Below, piece after piece: positions 807 through 36,324 of a stretch of 64,000 bases of DNA. The stretch's first letter is position 1. Every line of letters starts with the position of its first letter. A program made the position numbers and the translations under genes. The stretch comes from a virus (taxonomy: Duplodnaviria; Heunggongvirae; Uroviricota; Caudoviricetes): the IMG/VR virus record IMGVR_UViG_3300045988_006728. One strand, 5' to 3'. The notes under the pieces were generated by a model, which was not told the DNA's origin, did not search any database, and saw nothing but the letters and a program-made list of their open reading frames with translations.

Positions 807-2222
807 ATGAGCGAATTATTCAAACATGCGCACCTTCATGCAGGTCGAACTGAAAATGGTGCTGTAAACCATACTTCATCAATGTCTGCTCTTGTAGACT
901 TTTACAAAGCTGCTGGTTCAAGCCGTAGCAACGTAGAAATCTTACCAGACCTGTTCTACAAAGCTTTGCGTGAGGATGTTGATGTTGCAGTTCGTATTTT
1001 GCTTCATATGCGAGATGTACGAGAAGGTATGGGTGAGCGTAAAGCCTTCAGAACTGTTTTACTTCAAGCGATTGAAGACAAAGTTTTAGAGCCTACGCAG
1101 GTTCTTCGCATTATGGATAAGATTGCAGAACTTGGTCGTTTTGATGACTTCAAAATCTTCGTAGGTACTCGTTTCGAGACAGATGCCTTCAAACATCTAG
1201 AAGCAGCATTACTAGACCCTGCAACAGCAGGTTTGGCGGCTAAGTGGTTACCACGAGTCAAACCACGTCATAAGCAGTTTGTAAAACGTTTCTGCAAGTT
1301 TGCCAACTTGAGTGAGAAAGAGTACCGCACACTGTTGTCTGCACTATCTGATACAGTTGAGCAAAAAATCTCTGCTAATGAGTTTGGTAAGATTGACTAC
1401 AGTAAGATTCCTTCACTTGCTGCTGCACGTTACCAAAAACTGTTTAACCGCAAAGATGGAGAACGCTACAAAGCTTACATCGAGTCCTTATCAAAGGGTG
1501 AGGCTAAGATTAATGCTGGTGCTGTTTACCCATACGATGTAATTAAATCTGTTAAGCATGGTAATGCAGATGTTGCTAATGAGCAGTGGAAAGCACTACC
1601 AAACTGGATGGCAGAGGGTGAAAACATCTTGTGTATGTCTGATGTTTCAAGCTCAATGTCTTGGGTGAATTTTGGTTCAATTACTGCTCTTGATATTGGT
1701 GTTTCACTTGCATTGTATGTAGCAGAACGTAATACAGGTTGCTTTAAGAATGAGTTGATGGTTTATTCAACAAACCCTCACTTCATCGAACTGAGTGGTG
1801 ATTTACGAAACCGTAATCGTCAGGTGATGCGACACGTTGAATATGGCTCAACTAACTTACAAGCAGCTTTTGACCGCATTCTTGAGATAGGTAAGAGAAA
1901 CAACTTGACTCAGAAAGATATGCCAAGTAAGCTTATCATCTTCTCCGATATGGAGTTCAATCAGGTTGATGGGGCTAACGGTCGTACAAACTTTGAAGCA
2001 ATTCAGAGTAAGTACAAAAAAGCTGGATACGAAATGCCTCAACTGGTATTCTGGTACTTAGCAAACCGTAATGGTACTTGCGAAGTGTCTGTTAAGGATA
2101 ACGGTGTAGCAATGGTATCTGGTTTTTCTCCAGCTACTTTAAAAGCTCTGCTTGGTGGTGAGAAGTTTGACCCAATCAGCGTAATGCTCAAAGCAGTAAT
2201 GATTGACCGTTATATCTGGTAA
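807..2222 (+). CDS. vWA-domain protein with MIDAS motif (D-V-S-S-S); possible TROVE/Ro60-like RNA-binding protein
   Basis: 471-aa ORF; DxSxS at ILCMSDVSSSMS about residue 276 with hydrophobic beta-strand context; helical N-terminal domain beginning TENGAV...LVDFYKAAGS, loosely like the Ro60 N-terminus as recalled. Confidence 0.45.
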   Translation: MSELFKHAHLHAGRTENGAVNHTSSMSALVDFYKAAGSSRSNVEILPDLFYKALREDVDVAVRILLHMRDVREGMGERKAFRTVLLQAIEDKVLEPTQVLRIMDKIAELGRFDDFKIFVGTRFETDAFKHLEAALLDPATAGLAAKWLPRVKPRHKQFVKRFCKFANLSEKEYRTLLSALSDTVEQKISANEFGKIDYSKIPSLAAARYQKLFNRKDGERYKAYIESLSKGEAKINAGAVYPYDVIKSVKHGNADVANEQWKALPNWMAEGENILCMSDVSSSMSWVNFGSITALDIGVSLALYVAERNTGCFKNELMVYSTNPHFIELSGDLRNRNRQVMRHVEYGSTNLQAAFDRILEIGKRNNLTQKDMPSKLIIFSDMEFNQVDGANGRTNFEAIQSKYKKAGYEMPQLVFWYLANRNGTCEVSVKDNGVAMVSGFSPATLKALLGGEKFDPISVMLKAVMIDRYIW

Positions 2223-2237
2223 AAAGTTTTAAAAAGG

Positions 2238-2275
2238 GTATTGACAATGTGTTTGATACCCTTTAATATGTTCTA
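2238..2275 (+). promoter_or_regulatory. Sigma70-like promoter (TTGACA-17-TAATAT)
   Basis: Good -35/-10 match with 17-bp spacer upstream of the tRNA array. Confidence 0.5.
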
Positions 2276-2330
2276 CATAGAAACGAAACGAGAGCTTTTC
2301 TAAGATACTGAAAAATATTTTAAAAAAGTT

Positions 2331-2368
2331 CTTGACAATCACTAAAAAATAATGTTAAAGTGGTTACA
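2331..2368 (+). promoter_or_regulatory. Sigma70-like promoter (TTGACA-17-TTAAAG)
   Basis: Second promoter in tandem directly upstream of the first tRNA. Confidence 0.4.
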
Positions 2369-2387
2369 TAGAGTTTGAAAAGTTTAT

Positions 2388-2464
2388 CTCTGTTTAGCTC
2401 AGCTTGGTAGAGCGTTCCGTTTGGGGCGGTAAGGCCGGAGGTTCAAGTCCTCCAACAGAGACCA
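2388..2464 (+). tRNA. tRNA-Pro (anticodon TGG)
   Basis: Acceptor ctctgtt/aacagag, D-arm gctc-agcttggta-gagc, T-arm ggagg-ttcaagt-cctcc, anticodon loop tttgggg, encoded CCA. Confidence 0.7.
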
Positions 2465-2471
2465 AATTAAT

Positions 2472-2549
2472 GTTCCAGTAGACAAAATGGTAAAGTCACC
2501 ACTCTTTCAAAGTGGATATCTGAGGGTTCAAATCCCTTCTGGAACGCCA
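2472..2549 (+). tRNA. tRNA-Glu (anticodon TTC)
   Basis: Acceptor gttccag/ctggaac, anticodon stem ccact/agtgg with loop ctttcaa, T-loop ttcaaat, CCA. Confidence 0.7.
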
Positions 2550-2556
2550 GTTTTGA

Positions 2557-2628
2557 CAGAAGACCAATTACAGCAAACTTAATCTACTCATCTGACACGA
2601 AATCGGACAAAGAAGATATTTGGTCTGG
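2557..2628 (+). ncRNA. Structured inter-tRNA element, unit 1 (A box CAGAAGACC ... B box GGTCTGG); candidate Y RNA-like stem-loop
   Basis: AGACC of the A box pairs with GGTCT of the B box; conserved TaCAGCAA follows the A box; same framing repeated at three other sites. Confidence 0.35.
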
Positions 2629-2639
2629 TCATTGAGAAT

Positions 2640-2716
2640 TGCGGGTATAGAGAAAGGGCGTCTCACATGTCTCATTAGCATGGTATCGGCAGGTTCGACT
2701 CCTGCACCCGCCTCCA
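2640..2716 (+). tRNA. tRNA-Met (anticodon CAT)
   Basis: Anticodon stem catgt/gcatg with loop ctcatta, T-arm gcagg-ttcgact-cctgc, CCA; first acceptor pair mismatched and position 37 is T. Confidence 0.55.
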
Positions 2717-2722
2717 ATTTTG

Positions 2723-2782
2723 CAGAAGACCGTATTCAGCAACAAAATACTTTTTGCGGATAAAAGAAAAAACACGGTCTGG
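2723..2782 (+). ncRNA. Structured inter-tRNA element, unit 2 (A/B box framed)
   Basis: CAGAAGACCgtaTtCAGCAA at 2723 and GGTCTGG at 2776; the inner helix shows compensatory changes relative to unit 1. Confidence 0.35.
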
Positions 2783-2793
2783 CAATGTATTAA

Positions 2794-2870
2794 GGTTAGG
2801 AAGCACATAAGGTATGTGCGGTCGCCTGTTAAGCGAATGGCACAGGGTTCGAATCCCTGACTAACCGCCA
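2794..2870 (+). tRNA. tRNA-Asn (anticodon GTT)
   Basis: Anticodon loop ctgttaa, T-arm caggg-ttcgaat-ccctg, acceptor 3' strand actaacc, CCA. Confidence 0.65.
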
Positions 2871-2879
2871 AATTTAAAT

Positions 2880-2967
2880 GTGTCGTTATCCCGTAGATGG
2901 TAGCGGTGGGGACTGTAAATCCCTTGTCATTGAGACTCGGTAGGTTCGACTCCTACACGGCACACCA
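2880..2967 (+). tRNA. tRNA-Tyr (anticodon GTA), class II with long variable arm
   Basis: 88 nt; anticodon stem gggga/tccct with loop ctgtaaa; T-arm gtagg-ttcgact-cctac; CCA. Confidence 0.65.
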
Positions 2968-2972
2968 ATAAA

Positions 2973-3050
2973 GGTTATGTAGTTTAATTTGGTTAAAATA
3001 CTCCCCTGTCACGGGAGATGATGAGGGTTCAAATCCCTTCGTAACCGCCA
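2973..3050 (+). tRNA. tRNA-Asp (anticodon GTC)
   Basis: Anticodon stem ctccc/gggag with loop ctgtcac; T-loop ttcaaat; CCA. Confidence 0.65.
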
Positions 3051-3111
3051 ATTTTGAGAGGGCTATTTAGCCCCTCCCTTAAAGGGTTCTTACGAGTATC
3101 CTTTAAAGGAG

Positions 3112-3184
3112 CAGAAGACCAAATACAGCAAGAACGTATGAAATTTCAAGCCAATTTAATTTTGAAAATTTAAACTTGGTCTGG
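3112..3184 (+). ncRNA. Structured inter-tRNA element, unit 3a (A/B box framed)
   Basis: CAGAAGACCaaaTaCAGCAA at 3112 and GGTCTGG at 3178. Confidence 0.35.
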
Positions 3185-3197
3185 CTCAACAAATTTA

Positions 3198-3329
3198 CAG
3201 AAGACCGTTTACAGCAAAACTTAAACAATCTATTTCTCCGGTAAAGAAAAGGCGAAGGTTCGATTCCTTCACTCGGCAGATGTCGAGTTGGTGTAATGGT
3301 AGCACTTAAGATGATAAACAACGGTCTGG
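3198..3329 (+). ncRNA. Structured element, unit 3b, with internal tRNA-mimic domain; candidate YrlA-like Y RNA
   Basis: A box at 3198 and B box at 3323 frame a T-arm (gaagg-ttcgatt-ccttc, 3254-3270), a 7-bp acceptor-like helix closed by a 4-nt loop (actcggc-agat-gtcgagt, 3271-3288) and a D-arm (gtg-taatggtag-cac); there is no anticodon arm. Confidence 0.4.
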
Positions 3330-3330
3330 T

Positions 3331-3474
3331 AATTATCTTTGTAGATAAGTTATTAAGCTTACCTGTGAGTATGCGACCACAAAGGGTGAAAGGGTAAATT
3401 CTAGATTTAAACCCAAAAAGGCACATCGCTACAGACCTTAAGCAAGTCTGGGTAGCTTATCTACAAAGATAATT
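3331..3474 (+). repeat. Perfect 19-bp inverted repeat (AATTATCTTTGTAGATAAG) flanking a 106-bp structured segment
   Basis: 3331-3349 is the exact reverse complement of 3456-3474; the interior holds further hairpins (cagac-N8-gtctg); ends 4 nt before tRNA-Lys. Confidence 0.6.
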
Positions 3475-3478
3475 TAAT

Positions 3479-3554
3479 GGAAGTGTAGCAGAATGGTGAT
3501 GCGGCAGACTTTTAATCTGACAGGCGATGGGTTCGAATCCCTCCACTTCTACCA
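3479..3554 (+). tRNA. tRNA-Lys (anticodon TTT)
   Basis: Anticodon loop cttttaa, D-loop aatggtga, T-loop ttcgaat, acceptor ggaagtg/cacttct, CCA; paralog of the tRNA at 5201. Confidence 0.7.
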
Positions 3555-3558
3555 ATAT

Positions 3559-3635
3559 GGTTCAGTCGCAGATAAGGTAATGCAGGGGTCTCATAAGCCC
3601 TATGAATGTGGGTTCGATTCCCATCTGAACCTCCA
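3559..3635 (+). tRNA. tRNA with anticodon CAT (Met, fMet or Ile2)
   Basis: Perfect acceptor ggttcag/ctgaacc, anticodon loop ctcataa, T-loop ttcgatt, CCA. Confidence 0.7.
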
Positions 3636-3636
3636 A

Positions 3637-3712
3637 GCTGGTATAGTTAAGAAGGTTATAACACTCCCCTGATAAGGGAACATCGGTGGTTCGATTCCAC
3701 CTACCAGTACCA
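3637..3712 (+). tRNA. tRNA-Ile (anticodon GAT)
   Basis: Anticodon loop ctgataa, T-arm ggtgg-ttcgatt-ccacc, CCA. Confidence 0.7.
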
Positions 3713-3723
3713 ATTTCAATAAA

Positions 3724-3759
3724 GTTGTTGACATTGAGATGTGACTACTTTATAGTAAC
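3724..3759 (+). promoter_or_regulatory. Sigma70-like promoter (TTGACA-17-TATAGT)
   Basis: Strong -35/-10 match; followed by about 230 nt of structured non-coding sequence before tRNA-Arg. Confidence 0.5.
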
Positions 3760-3987
3760 CTTAGTTTTCGTTGCGTAGCGTCTATTTTGCAAATTTAAAA
3801 TAAATGCAAACGACAATGTTTTTCTGGCAGTAGCTTGATAGGCTAAACACCAGTGAGGTCTTCCAATCCCTCATCAAAGAATTTGGCGTACTCGCCCACG
3901 GTATGATTAATAATGTGGGCAACACTCTAAAGGGTATCCCTTATGGGTCTTGGCTTAAATGCAATAAGTACCCTTTAAAATGTTAAT

Positions 3988-4064
3988 GCACCCTTAGTTC
4001 AATTGGATAGAGCAACGGTCTTCTAAATCGTTAGTTACAGGTTCGAATCCTGTAGGGTGTGCCA
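3988..4064 (+). tRNA. tRNA-Arg (anticodon TCT)
   Basis: Anticodon stem acggt/atcgt with loop cttctaa; T-loop ttcgaat; acceptor gcaccct/agggtgt; CCA. Confidence 0.7.
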
Positions 4065-4207
4065 ATTTAGTTAGCAGATTGCTTAGACGACCTTATCGGG
4101 TCTCCGTGTAAGGAGGTGGTCTGTATCTCATGTTTTCCAGAACATGTAAATAATCTGAGAAGGTGCTTTACAGTGTTGAGATAATACGGTAAGCTTCGAA
4201 TTATAGT

Positions 4208-4290
4208 GTGGGACGATGTTAAGACTCTAAGGCATGAGCAACGGCCTCCAAAACCGTTTCAAAGTGGTTCAACTCCTCCGTCCCATGCCA
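4208..4290 (+). tRNA. Atypical tRNA-like gene, anticodon loop ctCCAaa (Trp?), 8-bp acceptor helix
   Basis: 8-bp helix gtgggacg/cgtcccat, discriminator G, CCA and T-loop ttcaact are present, but the D-region is about 8 nt too long for a canonical fold. Confidence 0.35.
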
Positions 4291-4303
4291 AAGTCTTATT
4301 AGG

Positions 4304-4393
4304 GGTAGGTAGCGGCTAATGGTAGCCAAACTGTCTTGAAAACAGTTGCCACTGTAGAGATACGGTGAGGGTTCGACTCCTTTACTTACCGCC
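4304..4393 (+). tRNA. tRNA-Ser (anticodon TGA), class II
   Basis: 90 nt; anticodon stem actgt/acagt with loop cttgaaa; long variable arm; T-loop ttcgact; discriminator G; only CC of CCA encoded. Confidence 0.65.
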
Positions 4394-4662
4394 TAATAAG
4401 ATTTAAAGCCAAGCTTCATTCGGATGTTGCTTTGGTATCCCTCGTGTATTGTCGTACACGCACAGTAAAGCACCTAGTAGGTGTCACGGAGAAGAGATAA
4501 TATCAAGCTCTCCAAAGGTTCTAGTCACCGGATTAAACAAGACTATGCAAAGACCTTTTTAGGTCTTTTTAGAGGGCTTCTAAGGTTATTACAGCTTGTT
4601 GTGGAACCTTGTTGCTTAGGTTCTTAGAAGTTCTCTAAAAAGATTTAATGGGAGATTGACAT

Positions 4663-5115
4663 ATGGCACGTAGCAGTTTGACTAAAGATATTCTTGAACC
4701 TTTAGTAAAGGGTTCAGTATCATTCAGAGAAGTGCTTATAAAGCTTGGGAGAAAACCATCAGGTGGTTCTCAGTCACATCTAAAGCGTGTTATAGAGAAG
4801 TTTGAAATAGACACTTCTCATTTCCTCGGACAAAAGGCTGGTAAGATTAAAACTGTACCAAAAAGAAAGCCTGAAGAAATCTTAATTCTACGTGAATCTG
4901 GTGAAAGAGCAAGGTCTTCACAACTAAGAAGAGCTTTAATAGCATCTGGTATCGAATACAAATGCTCTAAATGCGGTCAGTTACCGGAGTGGTTGGGCAA
5001 CCCTCTAACTCTTGATGTTGACCACATTAATGAGAACTGGTTAGATGATAGAAAAGAGAATCTTCGGTTCTTATGTCCAAATTGCCACAGTCAATTCTCA
5101 AGGCATTTGATTTAA
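4663..5115 (+). CDS. HNH homing endonuclease inside the tRNA array
   Basis: 150-aa ORF with C-terminal HNH signature DVDHINENW...RFLCPNCHSQ; stop codon lies 2 nt before the next tRNA. Confidence 0.7.
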   Translation: MARSSLTKDILEPLVKGSVSFREVLIKLGRKPSGGSQSHLKRVIEKFEIDTSHFLGQKAGKIKTVPKRKPEEILILRESGERARSSQLRRALIASGIEYKCSKCGQLPEWLGNPLTLDVDHINENWLDDRKENLRFLCPNCHSQFSRHLI

Positions 5116-5116
5116 T

Positions 5117-5193
5117 GCACCTATAGCCCAACTGGTAGAGGCAGCAGACTTAGAATCTGCTCAGTGTGAGTTCGAATCTCTCTAGGTGTACCA
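5117..5193 (+). tRNA. tRNA with anticodon TAG (decodes Leu CUA) but class I, short-variable-arm fold
   Basis: Acceptor gcaccta/taggtgt, anticodon stem gcaga/tctgc with loop cttagaa, T-loop ttcgaat, CCA; variable arm only 5 nt. Confidence 0.55.
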
Positions 5194-5200
5194 AATTAAT

Positions 5201-5276
5201 GCAGGTGTAGCAAAATGGTTATGCGGCTGACTCTTAATCAGTAAGACGATGGGTTCAATTCCCTCCACCTGTACCA
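5201..5276 (+). tRNA. tRNA-Lys (anticodon CTT)
   Basis: Paralog of tRNA-Lys(TTT) at 3479 with a compensatory change in the anticodon stem; loop ctcttaa; CCA. Confidence 0.65.
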
Positions 5277-5282
5277 GACATT

Positions 5283-5358
5283 GGGGATGTAGTTTACATG
5301 GTTAAAACATAAGTTTTGCAAACTTAAGTACAGGGTTCAATTCCCTGCTTCTCCACCA
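5283..5358 (+). tRNA. tRNA-Ala (anticodon TGC)
   Basis: G3-U70 wobble pair in the acceptor stem (ggggatg/cttctcc), anticodon loop tttgcaa, T-arm caggg-ttcaatt-ccctg, CCA. Confidence 0.7.
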
Positions 5359-5364
5359 ATTAGT

Positions 5365-5439
5365 GCATCCATAGTTTAAACGGGAAAATTACAGTCTTCC
5401 AAACTGAGGTTGAGGGTTCGAGTCCCTTCGGATTCTCCA
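5365..5439 (+). tRNA. tRNA-Gly (anticodon TCC), acceptor stem imperfect
   Basis: Anticodon loop cttccaa, T-arm gaggg-ttcgagt-ccctt, CCA; two mismatches in the acceptor helix. Confidence 0.5.
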
Positions 5440-5477
5440 AGTTATTTTACTCTCTCTCAATTAAAATAATAATAATG

Positions 5478-5528
5478 CCCTGCTATAAGTATTCTTCCTT
5501 TCGCTACCGAAGAGTATTTTTAGACAGG
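5478..5528 (+). terminator. Hairpin plus T-run at the end of the tRNA array
   Basis: gccctg...cagggc followed by tttttt. Confidence 0.35.
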
Positions 5529-5661
5529 GCTTTTTTACAGAGTTATACTTTATAGGAAGACTTATACAGTATGTCTCTGACGTACATTGTGGTTTCTCCT
5601 TGACGGTCTCTGTGCCGTCTTTTTTAAGGGGAAACATGGTTAATTATTTGGAGAAAACATA

Positions 5662-5862
5662 ATGAGTGAGACCGTTTACAAAGAACTTTATGAAGCTAAT
5701 AAAAAGCTAGAATTTATGCAGAACACTATCATGGCAATTGCAGATAGATTATCTGTAGCAACAGGTATTGATATTAAAGAAGCATCTATGGATGCACTTC
5801 TTGATGCTGTTGATGCAAAGTTCGAAGTTAAGAAAGAAGAGACTGCTACAGACTCTGAATAA
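5662..5862 (+). CDS. Hypothetical small protein upstream of the large terminase (small terminase role unproven)
   Basis: 66-aa ORF tightly coupled to the terminase gene. Confidence 0.35.
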   Translation: MSETVYKELYEANKKLEFMQNTIMAIADRLSVATGIDIKEASMDALLDAVDAKFEVKKEETATDSE

Positions 5863-5883
5863 TTCTATTTGCGGAGGCGCTTA

Positions 5884-7485
5884 ATGGACTTAAATGCTGT
5901 TAAGCAGAAGCGAGTGGAAGATGTTAGGAAAGTCCTAGCTGGAGAGTTGGGGCTTTCTGATGAAGTAAAAGAAATTATTAAATCATTCGGTAAAGACCCC
6001 TCTAAATTCCTTCCAACTCAAATTCTGACTTTATTAAGATACACACCAGACCAAGTTCGCCTTATCTTTAAATTGATGACTGATAAGAACTATGTAGCCC
6101 CTCAGCCGGGTTCTCAAGAGGTCTTTTTAAATACTAATGCTGACTTGGTTCTCTATGGTGGTGCTGCTGGTGCTGGTAAGACTGCCGCATTGTTAATGGA
6201 CTCTTTAAGATTTATTGAAGACCCTAACTATAATGCTGTATATTTCCGTCGAAATACAACACAGTTACAAGGTGGTTTATGGCCTGCTGCAAAGAAACTA
6301 TTTGGTAAGTTTGGTGGGATTCCTCACGAGCAGAAAATGACTATCACATTCCCTTCTGGGGCAACTATCAAGTTTACCTACCTAGAACTTGAAAAGCACG
6401 CTGAAGGTCATCAGGGTATTGAATACTCAGCTATTTACTTTGACGAAGGTACACACTTCTCTGCTTCACAGATTTCATACCTACAAACCCGTCTACGTTC
6501 TGGTGCTGAAGGCGATTCATACATGAAGATTTCCATGAACCCAGACAGAGACCACTTTATTTACGATTGGGTAGAGCCATTCTTAGATGAAGAAGGCTAC
6601 CCAGACCCTGAAAAATGTGGTCGTATTCGTTGGTATGTAATGAACGATGGCGTGATGGTTTCTGATTGGGAGAGAGACAAGATTCTTGAAATGTTCCCCC
6701 TTGAGATTCCTCAAACATACACCTTTATTTCTGGTACGATTGATGATAACCCAATCCTTGACTTCTTAGAGCCTAAGTACCGTGGTAAGCTGGAAAACAA
6801 CACTCCTTTAAACGTTGCAAGACTTCGTTTCGGTAACTGGAAGGCTCGTGCAGAAGGTTCAAACTATTGGCAAAGACAATGGTGTGAAATTGTTGATTCA
6901 CTCCCAGAAGATGTATTTGATGTTAGAGCATGGGACTTAGCAGCAACTTTACCATCTGAGATTAACCCTAATCCAGACTGGACAGCAGGTGTTAAGATGG
7001 GTAAATCTAAAAAAGACGGTTGCTATTATATCATTGATGTAGTAAGATTTAGAGATAGACCCTCTGGAGTCGAAACACAAATTAATTTGACTGCTGAAAG
7101 TGACGGTAAGCGAACTGGTATTTTTATCCCTCAAGACCCAGGCGCTGCTGGTAAATCCTACGCAACATCCCTCATCAGGAAACTTGCCGAGAAAGGTTAT
7201 CGAGCAAGAGCCAAACCAACAAATAAAGATAAAGTTACCCGCTTTGCGGGATTTTCTGCTGCTTCTGAAGCTGGACTTGTAAAAGTCTTGAGAGGTAGTT
7301 GGAATGAAGCTTACTTTCAAGAGCTTGAAGGCTTTTGTGGTGATGGCAAAACTAAAGATGACCAAGTGGATGCTACCAGTGATGCTTTCAACAGTCTTAA
7401 CGAAGTTAAATTATTCAAGCCACCATCAATGGGCGCTCACACAGACTTAGTGAGGGGAAACCCATATGAGGGGCTTAGACGTTGA
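5884..7485 (+). CDS. Terminase large subunit
   Basis: Walker A LYGGAAGAGKT and a C-terminal nuclease-like region; GGAGG RBS before ATG at 5884 (the track ORF begins at 5869). Confidence 0.8.
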   Translation: MDLNAVKQKRVEDVRKVLAGELGLSDEVKEIIKSFGKDPSKFLPTQILTLLRYTPDQVRLIFKLMTDKNYVAPQPGSQEVFLNTNADLVLYGGAAGAGKTAALLMDSLRFIEDPNYNAVYFRRNTTQLQGGLWPAAKKLFGKFGGIPHEQKMTITFPSGATIKFTYLELEKHAEGHQGIEYSAIYFDEGTHFSASQISYLQTRLRSGAEGDSYMKISMNPDRDHFIYDWVEPFLDEEGYPDPEKCGRIRWYVMNDGVMVSDWERDKILEMFPLEIPQTYTFISGTIDDNPILDFLEPKYRGKLENNTPLNVARLRFGNWKARAEGSNYWQRQWCEIVDSLPEDVFDVRAWDLAATLPSEINPNPDWTAGVKMGKSKKDGCYYIIDVVRFRDRPSGVETQINLTAESDGKRTGIFIPQDPGAAGKSYATSLIRKLAEKGYRARAKPTNKDKVTRFAGFSAASEAGLVKVLRGSWNEAYFQELEGFCGDGKTKDDQVDATSDAFNSLNEVKLFKPPSMGAHTDLVRGNPYEGLRR

Positions 7486-35760: not shown

Positions 35761-36324
35761 TCAACTTAGTTTTGCAAACTCTCCGTGGAGTTTAATAGCA
35801 GCTTCACAGTAAGCTTTATGGGCTTCTTCTGGTGTGTCAAACATACCAAGATGATAGTTTTTACCTTGTAAACGTATCATTGCTCGAAACCTTTTACTTA
35901 TCTTCTGTACACCTTTTGGCAACCCAGATGGGGACTTTCTTGACCGATTGCAAGAGTTTTGTGAAGCTGTACAAACCCTTAAATTCAAGTACCTATTGTC
36001 CCAACCGTCCCCATTCTTATGGTCAACCTGTAAGTTTTTATCAGGCAGGTATCCATCCACATATAGTATTGCTAGACGGTTAGCTTGGTAGCCTTTACCA
36101 TCAAGCAATAACTGAACAGACTTGTGACCATCTGTGTTTATCCTATAATTTCCTGCCTTTTTACCTCCAAAACGAGAGTTGAAGTTCTTATTGCCTCGTG
36201 ATACCGGCTCTCTAAACTTCCAAGTAAAGACCCCTGTTTCGGGGTCGTAGTCCAATAGCTCCTTAAGACGAATTTCTGTAATCATTTCAACACCATCAAT
36301 GTACTTCCAACCAGCTCTTACCAA
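35761..36324 (-). CDS. HNH homing endonuclease with AP2-type DNA-binding domain
   Basis: 187 aa; HNH region QVDHKNGDGWDNRYLNLRVC...N.CN; overlaps the 3' end of the polymerase gene by 29 nt; paralog of 45864-46388. Confidence 0.7.
   Translation of the reverse strand: MVRAGWKYIDGVEMITEIRLKELLDYDPETGVFTWKFREPVSRGNKNFNSRFGGKKAGNYRINTDGHKSVQLLLDGKGYQANRLAILYVDGYLPDKNLQVDHKNGDGWDNRYLNLRVCTASQNSCNRSRKSPSGLPKGVQKISKRFRAMIRLQGKNYHLGMFDTPEEAHKAYCEAAIKLHGEFAKLS

What the first reader, a model, noticed from the sequence alone, without database searches (positions are those of the whole stretch)
4663..5115. HNH homing endonuclease gene inserted within the tRNA array
A free-standing HNH endonuclease sits between tRNA-Ser and the next tRNA cluster, with its stop codon 2 nt before the tRNA at 5117. 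Free-standing endonucleases inside tRNA regions are known in T4-like phages and mark recombination hot spots.
Basis: partly seen in the sequence, partly recalled or inferred. Interest (0 to 1): 0.35.

Follow-up and report, generated by a model that had tools for sequence, protein, structure and literature searches.

The report
Homing endonuclease paired with replacement tRNA-Leu
A small selfish nuclease gene sits in this FelixO1-like phage's tRNA cluster, inserted into the resident tRNA-Leu gene and followed by a different, intact tRNA-Leu copy; this is a new example of a known kind of mobile gene, from a large family that almost always sits next to tRNA-Leu genes.

Summary
ORF 4663-5115 (+) encodes a full-length 150-aa HNH nuclease. 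Its stop codon ends 1 nt, not 2, before tRNA-Leu(UAG) at 5117.

The window is a Felixounavirus. In GenBank, junction probes find the ORF in only 10 of about 247 related records (about 4%), always at this site and in two genera. It looks functional: the catalytic and zinc residues are intact, and the window and Michonne copies differ by 43 synonymous versus 5 non-synonymous codons.

It is not a plain intergenic insertion. Compared with ORF-less relatives, the first 11 nt of the common tRNA-Leu(UAG) allele "A" remain at 4650-4660 and supply the ribosome-binding site. The rest of that tRNA is replaced by the ORF plus a different tRNA-Leu(UAG) allele "B". Homology resumes at the tRNA 3' end. Allele B without the ORF (about 75 records) equals this locus minus the 467 bp bounded by a 9-bp direct repeat.

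Across 72 diverse viral loci, 55 of 79 tRNAs abutting a homolog are tRNA-Leu (OR 8.5, p≈2e-16). A Pseudomonas phage pair shows the same HNH-plus-tRNA-Leu block swap.

Best reading: a free-standing homing endonuclease that probably targets tRNA-Leu genes and carries its own replacement allele. Cleavage and homing are untested. It is a new member of a known kind (T4 SegB, T5 F-Tfl).

The parts
4304..4393 (+). tRNA-Ser(UGA), left neighbour in the array; not part of the variable block
   Evidence: ARAGORN; identical in ekra, which lacks the HNH.
4394..4649 (+). Conserved non-coding spacer upstream of the tRNA-Leu slot, present in all three allele classes; folds stably and ends in a long hairpin (about 4558-4648)
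   Evidence: 97% identical to ekra. RNA fold -73.6 kcal/mol, z=-3.85, 0 of 200 shuffles as stable. No convincing sigma-70 promoter here.
4642..4650 (+). Direct repeat copy 1 (GATTTAATG): end of the spacer plus the first base of the tRNA slot
   Evidence: 3 copies in the window against 1.04 expected, two of them bracketing the insertion.
4650..4660 (+). Remnant of the resident tRNA-Leu(UAG) allele A, nt 1-11 (GGGAGATTGAC). Its GGGAG (4650-4654) lies 8 nt upstream of the ATG and serves as the Shine-Dalgarno sequence
   Evidence: Identical to the first 11 nt of the tRNA-Leu of ekra and Mordin (10 of 11 in FelixO1); homology to A-type genomes stops after nt 11.
4663..5115 (+). Free-standing HNH endonuclease gene, 150 aa
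   Evidence: Compared with the Michonne copy, 43 synonymous and 5 non-synonymous codon differences.
4684..4800 (+). N-terminal three-helix module (aa 8-46), a putative DNA-binding domain, followed by a basic, lower-confidence linker (aa 47-84)
   Evidence: AlphaFold model, mean pLDDT 84.9, helices H8-16, H21-28, H34-46. Only weak Foldseek matches to HTH DNA-binding domains (NarL/LiaR/LysR). T5-like 'HTH psq' protein in BFVD.
4915..5100 (+). C-terminal HNH domain (aa 85-146): zinc CxxC pairs C101/C104 and C138/C141; catalytic H121, N133, H142
   Evidence: These columns are invariant in alignment A2. Pfam HNH covers aa 101-144. Best PDB fold matches are EcoKMcrA 6ghc, Cas5-HNH, Cap5 and the Gme HNH nickase.
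5109..5117 (+). Direct repeat copy 2 (GATTTAATG): last codons of the ORF (L-I-stop), the 1-nt spacer, and the first base of tRNA-Leu B
   Evidence: Removing one repeat and the intervening sequence (467 bp) gives exactly the HNH-less B allele of wV8 and Sf17.
5117..5193 (+). tRNA-Leu(UAG) allele B, 77 nt, with discriminator A73 and encoded CCA. It travels with the HNH gene and is about 52% identical to allele A
   Evidence: ARAGORN; Rfam tRNA 57.3 bits; comparison with A. A B-type tRNA also lies 1 nt after the stop codon of the 72%- and 70%-identical homologs P0003 and P0004 in differently ordered arrays.

Best explanation
The ORF encodes an intact free-standing HNH homing endonuclease. It has an N-terminal helical DNA-binding module, a basic linker and a C-terminal zinc-stabilised HNH domain. 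It belongs to a large phage family specialised on tRNA-Leu genes in tRNA arrays.

In this lineage it occupies the tRNA-Leu(UAG) slot. Nt 12-72 of the resident allele A have been replaced by the endonuclease gene plus a different, intact tRNA-Leu(UAG) allele B. Gene and tRNA B therefore form one exchange unit, and the phage keeps a working tRNA-Leu(UAG).

Inferred mechanism: in a mixed infection the enzyme nicks or cuts the tRNA-Leu(UAG) locus of a relative that lacks the gene. Allele A is the most likely target because the insertion splits it. Recombinational repair from the HNH-carrying genome then copies in the HNH and tRNA B. This is intronless homing, or localised marker exclusion. The enzyme's own genome is immune because the site is split or replaced.

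Inferred expression: the gene is read through from the co-oriented tRNA array. Its ribosome-binding site is the 5' remnant of tRNA A. The 3' end of its mRNA is set by RNase P processing of tRNA B.

Loss of the gene by deletion between the 9-bp direct repeats would leave allele B without the HNH.

Shown: the ORF, its domains, family membership, presence/absence polymorphism, exact junctions, the allele swap, the tRNA-Leu bias of the family, and a second independent swap in another genus. Inferred: catalysis, target site, homing, the expression route and the order of events.
For: - **Identity:** HNH domain and family membership. Two-domain model, pLDDT 84.9, with an McrA-like HNH fold.
- **Selection:** 43 synonymous versus 5 non-synonymous codon differences between the window and Michonne copies.
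- **Sporadic at a fixed site:** GenBank junction census gives A in 162 records, B in about 75 and H in 10. IMG/VR gives A 16, B 5, H 2.
- **Same-species pair:** Michonne (H) and Mordin (A) have flanks 98-100% identical and differ only by [HNH + tRNA B] in place of tRNA A nt 12-72.
- **Junctions at base resolution:**
- **HNH-B linkage elsewhere:** conserved at 70-72% protein identity in differently ordered arrays.
- **Family bias:** in 72 non-identical viral loci, 489 of 492 tRNAs are co-oriented with the ORF. 55 of 79 abutting tRNAs are Leu, against 87 of 410 non-abutting (Fisher OR 8.5, p=1.9e-16).
- **Second natural pair:** in Otagovirus, phiPsa347 and phiPsa374 swap the HNH together with a different tRNA-Leu(UAG) allele, and the block ends exactly at the tRNA 3' ACCA.
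- **Decay:** L027 holds a frameshifted copy followed by a truncated tRNA.
- **Precedents:** SegB cleaves tRNA genes and drives inheritance of the T4 tRNA region (PMC2330249). T5 heg genes lie in the tRNA region and overlap downstream tRNAs.
Against: - No biochemical or genetic data exist for this protein or any member of its family. Its closest studied relative, T5 hegA, shares only the HNH module (34% over 71 aa).
- The target is unknown. Allele B with its native upstream flank could be the target instead of, or as well as, allele A.
- The order of events is not secure. The phage's own tRNA-Leu(CAA) and (UAA) have B-like D-arms, so B may be the native type rather than imported.
- HNH DNA identity between the window and Michonne (88.5%) is close to the regional average (85.5%), so there is no clear sign of recent horizontal transfer.
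- tRNA arrays recombine readily without any nuclease. This window itself has a T-arm-mediated deletion.
- No promoter was found for the gene.
Confidence: 0.65

Rival explanations
1. Passive passenger. The HNH gene is inactive or irrelevant to its own spread. Its patchy distribution and the A/B tRNA swap come from ordinary homologous recombination among repeat-rich, mosaic tRNA arrays.
For: - The arrays are clearly recombinogenic. The window carries a 2.27-kb deletion made by crossover in the T-arms of tRNA-Gly and tRNA-Cys.
- tRNA-Ala is also dimorphic, independently of the HNH.
- A and B exchange without any HNH in about 237 records.
- HNH divergence is similar to that of its flanks.
Against: - Purifying selection (43 synonymous, 5 non-synonymous) and invariant catalytic residues argue for an active protein.
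- Unrelated phage groups place family members right against tRNA-Leu (OR 8.5, p≈2e-16), which random array recombination does not predict.
- The same HNH-plus-tRNA-Leu block swap occurs in Otagovirus.
Confidence: 0.15
2. Domesticated nuclease that benefits the phage. It might exclude co-infecting relatives. It might also promote amplification or exchange of tRNA genes that counter tRNA-cleaving host defences, as reported for SegB. This overlaps mechanistically with homing.
For: - SegB amplifies tRNA-Tyr to escape Septu, and segB homologs co-localise with tRNAs (PMC13096335).
- Phage tRNA alleles differ in anticodon stems. The FelixO1 and ekra A alleles show a fully compensated stem swap.
- The HNH always travels with a particular tRNA-Leu allele.
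Against: - Only about 4% of relatives keep the gene, which fits a selfish element better than a beneficial one.
- Decayed copies exist.
- No tandem amplification of the locus is seen in the window.
- I know of no defence system that targets tRNA-Leu(UAG) in enterobacteria (my own knowledge, not tested).
Confidence: 0.12
3. Packaging-associated HNH. The nuclease would work with the nearby terminase (large subunit at 5869-7485), as in HK97-like cos phages.
For: In this window the ORF is only about 750 bp upstream of the terminase large subunit gene.
Against: - That proximity results from the 2.27-kb deletion. In intact relatives about 3 kb of tRNAs and ORFs lie between them.
- About 96% of relatives package DNA without the gene.
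- Family members track tRNA-Leu, not terminase.
Confidence: 0.02
4. Intron-encoded endonuclease of a tRNA-Leu group I intron, as in cyanobacterial and plastid tRNA-Leu(UAA).
For: Association with tRNA-Leu genes. In some homologs the reading frame runs about 36 nt into the tRNA, up to the anticodon.
Against: - The ORF lies wholly upstream of an uninterrupted 77-nt tRNA.
- A permissive Rfam scan of 1500-6500 finds no intron family.
- The upstream remnant is only 11 nt of a different tRNA allele.
Confidence: 0.01

Closest known systems
T4 SegB (GIY-YIG free-standing homing endonuclease in the T4 tRNA gene cluster; PMC2330249, PMC13096335)
   Same: - It is a free-standing endonuclease gene inside a phage tRNA cluster and is absent from close relatives.
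- It cleaves within tRNA genes of relatives that lack it, and it drives co-inheritance of itself with adjacent tRNA genes.
- Its expression is thought to be limited by processing of the downstream tRNA.
   Different: - It has an unrelated nuclease fold (GIY-YIG, not HNH).
- It recognises the generic T-psi-C motif, and its homologs show no tRNA isotype preference. This family is strongly biased towards tRNA-Leu.
- SegB activity is demonstrated experimentally; this protein's activity is not.
T5 HNH endonucleases of the tRNA gene region (F-TflI/II/IV; hegA, hegC, hegD; Akulenko et al. 2004, as cited in PMC2330249)
   Same: - They are HNH enzymes encoded among phage tRNA genes and co-oriented with them.
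- The hegC and hegD ORF ends overlap the 5' ends of downstream tRNAs, and hegC starts 17 nt after tRNA-Leu(UAG).
- hegA shares the CxxC...HNH...CxxCH module (34% identity over 71 aa, E=5e-12).
   Different: - Their N- and C-terminal domains and lengths differ (195-228 aa).
- Only hegA is detectably related, and only in the catalytic module; hegC, hegD, hegE and hegF are not.
- Which heg gene corresponds to which F-Tfl enzyme I infer from naming order only.
T4 SegF and gene 56 'intronless homing' (Belle, Landthaler and Shub 2002; reference 11 of PMC2330249; details from my own knowledge)
   Same: The concept is the same: a free-standing endonuclease gene lies next to a cleavage-resistant allele of its target gene. 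The endonuclease and resistant allele together replace the sensitive allele in relatives (localised marker exclusion).
   Different: The target there is a protein-coding gene and the nuclease is GIY-YIG. Here the linked gene is a tRNA, and the sensitive or resistant status of alleles A and B is only inferred.
EcoKMcrA-type HNH domain (PDB 6ghc) and small HNH nickases (Gme HNH, 4h9d)
   Same: They are the best structural and sequence matches for the C-terminal domain, sharing the CxxC/CxxC zinc site and the H...N...H motif.
   Different: The matches are weak (Foldseek E=2.7e-3; sequence E=0.18-0.5) and limited to the catalytic domain. McrA is a modification-dependent restriction enzyme with a different N-terminal domain.

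Membership tests
HNH / His-Me finger nucleases (Pfam PF01844) | Sequence match above the curated threshold | tested here: met
   23.2 bits against a gathering score of 21.4, aa 101-144.
HNH / His-Me finger nucleases (Pfam PF01844) | Catalytic His, structural Asn and metal-binding His, plus two CxxC zinc pairs | tested here: met
   H121, N133, H142, C101/C104 and C138/C141 are invariant across 30 family members and align with EcoKMcrA.
HNH / His-Me finger nucleases (Pfam PF01844) | Beta-beta-alpha-metal fold | tested here: met
   The AlphaFold model has strands 118-121 and 134-137 and helix 139-146, with pLDDT above 88 in this region. Top PDB fold matches are HNH nucleases.
PHROG 10822 (phage 'HNH endonuclease' family, about 150 aa) | Full-length profile match | tested here: met
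   E=4.4e-66, aa 2-149. 223 clusters at 50% identity with E<=1e-30.
Free-standing homing endonuclease gene (functional class) | Present or absent at the same locus among otherwise collinear close relatives | tested here: met
   10 of about 247 GenBank records. Michonne versus Mordin within one species.
Free-standing homing endonuclease gene (functional class) | Not embedded in an intron or intein | tested here: met
   No intron family found by Rfam. The ORF has its own start codon and Shine-Dalgarno sequence and is not fused in frame to a host gene.
Free-standing homing endonuclease gene (functional class) | Site-specific cleavage of the allele that lacks the gene | not testable with these tools
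   Needs purified protein and A-type and B-type DNA substrates.
Free-standing homing endonuclease gene (functional class) | Nuclease-dependent, unidirectional inheritance with co-conversion of flanks in mixed infection | not testable with these tools
   Needs phage crosses. The only indirect support is that tRNA B always accompanies the gene.
Free-standing homing endonuclease gene (functional class) | The carrier genome lacks an intact target site | tested here: inconclusive
   Allele A is split after nt 11, and no other A-like sequence exists in the window (0 matches at up to 3 mismatches). However, the true target is unknown.
Terminase-associated HNH (HK97-type packaging factor) | Conserved in all relatives next to the terminase genes | tested here: not met
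   Absent from about 96% of relatives. Its nearness to the terminase here is a deletion artefact.
Intron-encoded endonuclease of tRNA-Leu group I introns | ORF inside a self-splicing intron that interrupts the tRNA anticodon loop | tested here: not met
   The tRNA at 5117-5193 is uninterrupted and there is no intron RNA match.

The most novel reading that the evidence does not exclude
This would be an endonuclease family dedicated to a single tRNA isotype. It would exist as reciprocal 'endonuclease + resistant tRNA-Leu(UAG) allele' units. The B-linked lineage displaces allele A in Ounavirinae, and the A-like-linked lineage displaces a B-like allele in Otagovirus. The family would then act as a tRNA-allele gene drive that shapes phage tRNA repertoires. 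Its expression would be coupled to tRNA maturation: in many members the stop codon is formed by tRNA nt 8-10, so RNase P cleavage would strip the stop codon from the mRNA.
Probability: 0.3. Interest if true: 0.6.

Novelty: new member of a known kind. Interest (0 to 1): 0.4.

Why it matters
Phage tRNA clusters are now seen as anti-defence loci, because phage tRNAs replace host tRNAs that immune nucleases cut. The T4 endonuclease SegB was recently shown to remodel such loci.

This locus is a clean natural example from a different, uncharacterised nuclease family. It has base-resolution junctions and three co-circulating alleles: sensitive-looking A, HNH+B, and B alone. It also comes with a simple, testable prediction: the enzyme cuts tRNA-Leu(UAG) genes of relatives and installs its own allele.

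If confirmed, it would explain part of the allele mosaicism in FelixO1-like tRNA arrays. These phages are used for Salmonella typing and biocontrol. It would also add a tRNA-isotype-specific homing enzyme to the known set.

If not confirmed, this remains an ordinary, already-annotated "HNH endonuclease" in a phage genome.

Tried and rejected
- **PDB sequence searches** with the protein and with the family profile gave only marginal McrA hits (E 0.18-0.5). Fold comparison was needed, and it too matched only the catalytic domain.
- **No Pfam family** covers the N-terminal module. The HTH assignment rests on weak structural matches only.
- **The promoter and terminator scan** found nothing convincing upstream of the ORF. 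Co-transcription with the tRNAs is therefore assumed, not shown.
- **Recent horizontal transfer** was tested by comparing HNH and flank identity between genera. The result was inconclusive (88.5% versus a regional 85.5%).
- **Polarity of the alleles** (A ancestral, B imported) could not be settled. The resident tRNA-Leu(CAA) and (UAA) are B-like, so this stays an open inference.
- **The 245-position PHROG profile** suggested truncation. This is rejected, because most family members are about 150 aa.
- **pSJ21's second HNH** might have been a paralog. It is not (BLASTP E=0.42).
- **Intron, packaging-HNH and simple intergenic-insertion readings** were considered and rejected, as set out under the rival explanations.
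- **Upstream similarity in L091** (ATTTAAT..GGAGA before its start codon) was noted but judged too short to interpret.

Full report
**1.
- Window 4663-5115 (+) is an ATG-initiated ORF of 150 codons.
- ARAGORN finds 15 co-oriented tRNA genes between 2388 and 5439. tRNA-Ser(UGA) lies at 4304-4393, and tRNA-Leu(UAG) at 5117-5193 is followed by Lys, Ala and Gly. Rfam agrees.
- The stop codon TAA is at 5113-5115, so a single nucleotide separates it from the tRNA, not two.
- The protein passes Pfam's HNH threshold (23.2 against 21.4 bits) and matches PHROG 10822 'HNH endonuclease' at E=4.4e-66.
- It has 567 homologs at E<1e-5 in the 90%-clustered protein collection. In the exhaustive 50%-clustered library there are 223 representative clusters at E<=1e-30 and 7,940 at E<=1e-10.
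- Typical family length is about 150 aa, so the protein is complete, although the PHROG profile is 245 positions long.

**2. The protein.**
- An AlphaFold model built on a 30-sequence alignment has mean pLDDT 84.9. It shows an N-terminal three-helix bundle (aa 8-46), a basic, lower-confidence linker (aa 47-84), and a C-terminal beta-beta-alpha domain (aa 85-146).
- C101, C104, C138 and C141 (two CxxC zinc pairs) and H121, N133 and H142 are invariant in the family.
- The best matches among solved structures are HNH nucleases: EcoKMcrA 6ghc, Cas5-HNH, CBASS Cap5 and the Gme HNH nickase. All are weak and confined to the catalytic domain.
- The N-terminal module gives only weak matches to HTH DNA-binding domains. 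It has no Pfam family.
- Predicted viral structures give strong full-length matches to phage 'HNH' and 'NinG'-labelled proteins, and to a T5-like 'HTH psq' protein.

**3. The genome and the gene's distribution.**
- The region is 94-97% identical to many Felixounavirus genomes (FelixO1-like).
- tblastn finds the protein at over 90% identity in only 10 phage records: ECML-1, SP22, pSJ21, mistaenkt, PC79-13, EcSzw-2, EcSzw_1, Maleficent, and Michonne twice.
- A census with 60-nt junction probes, which only the matching allele can cover by 80% or more, gives three classes:

| Allele | GenBank records | IMG/VR exact junctions |
|---|---|---|
| A (no HNH) | 162 | 16 |
| B (no HNH) | about 75 (85 minus up to 10 H records joined across the insertion) | 5 |
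| H (HNH + B) | 10 | 2 |

- The gene is therefore a rare, sporadic allele at one fixed site. It occurs in two genera, Felixounavirus and Mooglevirus.

**4. What the insertion really is.** Alignments with relatives show three alleles in exactly the same slot.
- **Allele A** (ekra, FelixO1, Mordin): ...AAAAAGATTTAAT|GGGAGATTGAC GGTAATTGG... This is a 78-nt tRNA-Leu(UAG).
- **Allele B** (wV8, Sf17)...AAAAAGATTTAAT|GCACCTATAGCCC... This is a 77-nt tRNA-Leu(UAG), only about 52% identical to A.
- **Allele H** (window, pSJ21, Michonne, others): ...AAAAAGATTTAAT|GGGAGATTGAC|ATATG...HNH ORF...TTGATTTAA T|GCACCTATAGCCC...
- H therefore keeps the first 11 nt of tRNA A (window 4650-4660). It then carries the HNH ORF and a complete tRNA B. 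Homology to A-type genomes resumes only at the TACCA 3' end.
- The remnant's GGGAG sits 8 nt upstream of the ATG and is the only Shine-Dalgarno-like sequence.
- A 9-bp direct repeat, GATTTAATG, at 4642-4650 and 5109-5117 brackets the insertion. The window has 3 copies against 1.04 expected. Michonne has 8 of 9 in its right copy and ECML-1 has 8 of 9 in its left copy.
- Removing one repeat and the sequence between them (467 bp) gives precisely allele B.
- The cleanest comparison is within one species, Mooglevirus mordin. Michonne (H) and Mordin (A) are 98.4% identical in the upstream spacer and 100% identical across Lys to Gly. They differ only by this replacement.

**5. Signs of function.** The window and Michonne copies are 88.5% identical in DNA, with 43 synonymous and 5 non-synonymous codon differences. 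That indicates purifying selection. No second A-like sequence exists in the window.

**6. The gene and tRNA B travel together.** All ten H records carry B downstream.
- P0003, the closest relative outside these genera (72% identity), sits in an array of different order (Leu-Met-Ile-Arg-Lys). One nucleotide after its stop codon lies a B-type tRNA-Leu(UAG) with identical acceptor, D and T arms.
- P0004 (70% identity) has the same 1-nt spacing and a B-like tRNA.
- P0005 (66% identity) instead ends inside an A-like tRNA-Leu(UAG).

**7. A family-wide tRNA-Leu habit.** I fetched 80 loci from IMG/VR with a family profile and scanned them with ARAGORN.
- In 72 non-identical loci, 489 of 492 tRNAs are co-oriented with the ORF.
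- A tRNA abuts or overlaps the ORF 3' end in 44 loci, and 30 of those are tRNA-Leu.
- A tRNA lies within 80 nt upstream in 35 loci, and 25 of those are tRNA-Leu.
- Overall, 55 of 79 adjacent tRNAs are Leu, against 87 of 410 non-adjacent tRNAs in the same loci (Fisher OR 8.5, p=1.9e-16).
- In about a dozen loci the ORF overlaps the tRNA by exactly 10 nt and uses tRNA nt 8-10 (TAG or TGA) as its stop codon. Pseudomonas phage phiPsa347 does the same.
- One locus, L027, holds a frameshifted copy followed by only the 3' third of a tRNA. That is the decay stage expected for a selfish endonuclease gene.

**8. A second, independent natural experiment.** In Otagovirus Psa374, phiPsa347 carries a 58%-identical homolog and phiPsa374 does not.
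- Their flanks are about 99.7% identical.
- The variable block ends exactly at the ACCA of tRNA-Leu(UAG), and the tRNA-Leu alleles differ.
- Here the HNH is linked to an A-like allele, and the HNH-less genome has a B-like one. This is the reverse of the Ounavirinae situation.
- A parallel case with an unrelated HNH (BLASTP E=0.42) occurs in pSJ21. It lies directly 5' of a different tRNA-Asp allele, and homology to the HNH-less genomes resumes at that tRNA's 3' end.

**9. Interpretation.**
- The data fit a free-standing homing endonuclease whose exchange unit is 'HNH gene plus the tRNA-Leu immediately downstream'.
- The most economical mechanism is intronless homing. The enzyme cuts the tRNA-Leu(UAG) locus of genomes that lack it, and repair copies in the gene and its linked allele.
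- Allele A is the favoured target because the insertion splits it after nt 11. Allele B with its native upstream flank cannot be excluded, because H shares only 8-9 nt upstream of tRNA B with B-type genomes.
- Deletion between the 9-bp repeats would turn H into B, which may be a resistant footprint.
- This order of events (A to H to B) is an inference. H must have arisen in an A context, and B does travel with the gene elsewhere. But the phages' own tRNA-Leu(CAA) and (UAA) have B-like D-arms, so B could be native.
- No promoter was detected upstream, so read-through from the tRNA array is assumed. RNase P processing of tRNA B would then define the 3' end of the mRNA. The same idea was already proposed for segB and the T5 enzymes (PMC2330249).

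**10. Comparison with what is known.**
- Endonuclease genes in phage tRNA clusters are established. T4 SegB (GIY-YIG) cleaves tRNA genes at the T-psi-C motif and drives inheritance of the T4 tRNA region (PMC2330249). SegB homologs co-localise with tRNAs widely, without isotype preference (PMC13096335).
- T5 encodes HNH enzymes (F-TflI/II/IV) in its tRNA region. In the T5 record, hegC and hegD overlap downstream tRNAs and hegC follows tRNA-Leu(UAG). Only hegA shares the catalytic module with this protein (34% over 71 aa).
- HNH genes in mycobacterial tRNA clusters have also been noted (PMC6582537).
- Relatives' GenBank records already label this ORF 'HNH endonuclease'.
- I found no paper describing a tRNA-Leu-specific HNH family or the A/B/H allele series. 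The library does not cover subscription journals.

**11. Verdict.** It needs one refinement: the gene is embedded in, and paired with, a tRNA-Leu(UAG) gene. It is a new, uncharacterised member of a known kind. The isotype-specific family habit and the reciprocal allele linkage are the parts worth an experiment.

Noticed in passing
window 5365-5439 and the junction at 5439/5440: The 'tRNA-Gly(UCC)' is a chimera. Its 5' part is tRNA-Gly up to GGGTTCGA and its 3' end (GTCCCTTCGGATTCTCCA) is that of tRNA-Cys. Relative to ekra, 2,269 bp are missing: tRNAs Thr, Val, Leu-CAA, Gln, Leu-UAA, Gln, His, Phe, Ser-GCU and Cys, plus two ORFs. This looks like a crossover in the T-arms. The hybrid acceptor stem has two mismatches and the lowest Rfam tRNA score in the array (43.6 bits). 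The closest HNH-carrying relative, ECML-1, has the intact array.
   Followed up: yes
window 4394-4649: The 255-nt spacer between tRNA-Ser and the tRNA-Leu slot is conserved in all three allele classes. It folds unusually stably (z=-3.85) and ends in a long hairpin at about 4558-4648. It may be a stable small RNA or a processing element. Older records annotate short ORFs there.
   Followed up: partly
window 5117-5193; L001 2916-2993, 3494-3571, 4235-4313: All Felixounavirus tRNA-Leu genes (UAG, CAA, UAA) are 77-79 nt and lack the long variable arm typical of bacterial tRNA-Leu. They do have A73 and an encoded CCA. Whether LeuRS charges them is not established here.
   Followed up: no
L005 1212-1289 versus L001 2916-2993: The FelixO1 and ekra versions of tRNA-Leu allele A are nearly identical outside the anticodon stem (one further difference at nt 11, C/T), but the anticodon stem is entirely different and fully compensated (CCATC/GTTGG-type versus TCTCG/CGAGA). 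This suggests selection on that stem.
   Followed up: no
L002 (pSJ21) 1191-1699; compare window 2880-3050: pSJ21 has a second HNH gene, unrelated in sequence, between tRNA-Tyr and tRNA-Asp. The tRNA-Asp downstream of it is a different allele from the one in the window and ekra, and homology resumes at CGCCA. This is the same 'endonuclease + replacement tRNA' layout.
   Followed up: partly
window 5283-5358 (tRNA-Ala) versus L005, L006, L088: tRNA-Ala(UGC) is also dimorphic among these phages. The window, ekra and Sf17 share one type and FelixO1, Michonne and Mordin share the other, independently of the HNH.
   Followed up: no
loci L012, L013, L014, L043, L047, L053, L055, L058, L062, L067, L076 and L003 3438-3447: In many family members the ORF overlaps the downstream tRNA by exactly 10 nt and uses tRNA nt 8-10 (TAG or TGA) as its stop codon. 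RNase P cleavage at the tRNA 5' end would therefore remove the stop codon from the mRNA.
   Followed up: partly
L027 1501-1952 and 1953-2000: This is a frameshifted pseudogene, 77% identical over its C-terminal half. It is followed by only the 3' third of a tRNA (T-arm, acceptor 3' strand and CCA).
   Followed up: partly
window 35761-36324 (-): A second, unrelated homing-type endonuclease gene lies here: HNH_3 (46.9 bits) plus an AP2-like domain, 187 aa.
   Followed up: partly
window 3221-3271 and 4210-4284: Weak tRNA-like Rfam hits (22 and 21 bits, below threshold) fall in the larger gaps of the array. They may be decayed tRNA genes.
   Followed up: no
BFVD matches to model m64d546ae4862: Full-length structural relatives include proteins of giant viruses (Fadolivirus, Yasminevirus, Marseillevirus), at E of 1e-8 to 1e-11. 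I did not examine their genomic context.
   Followed up: no
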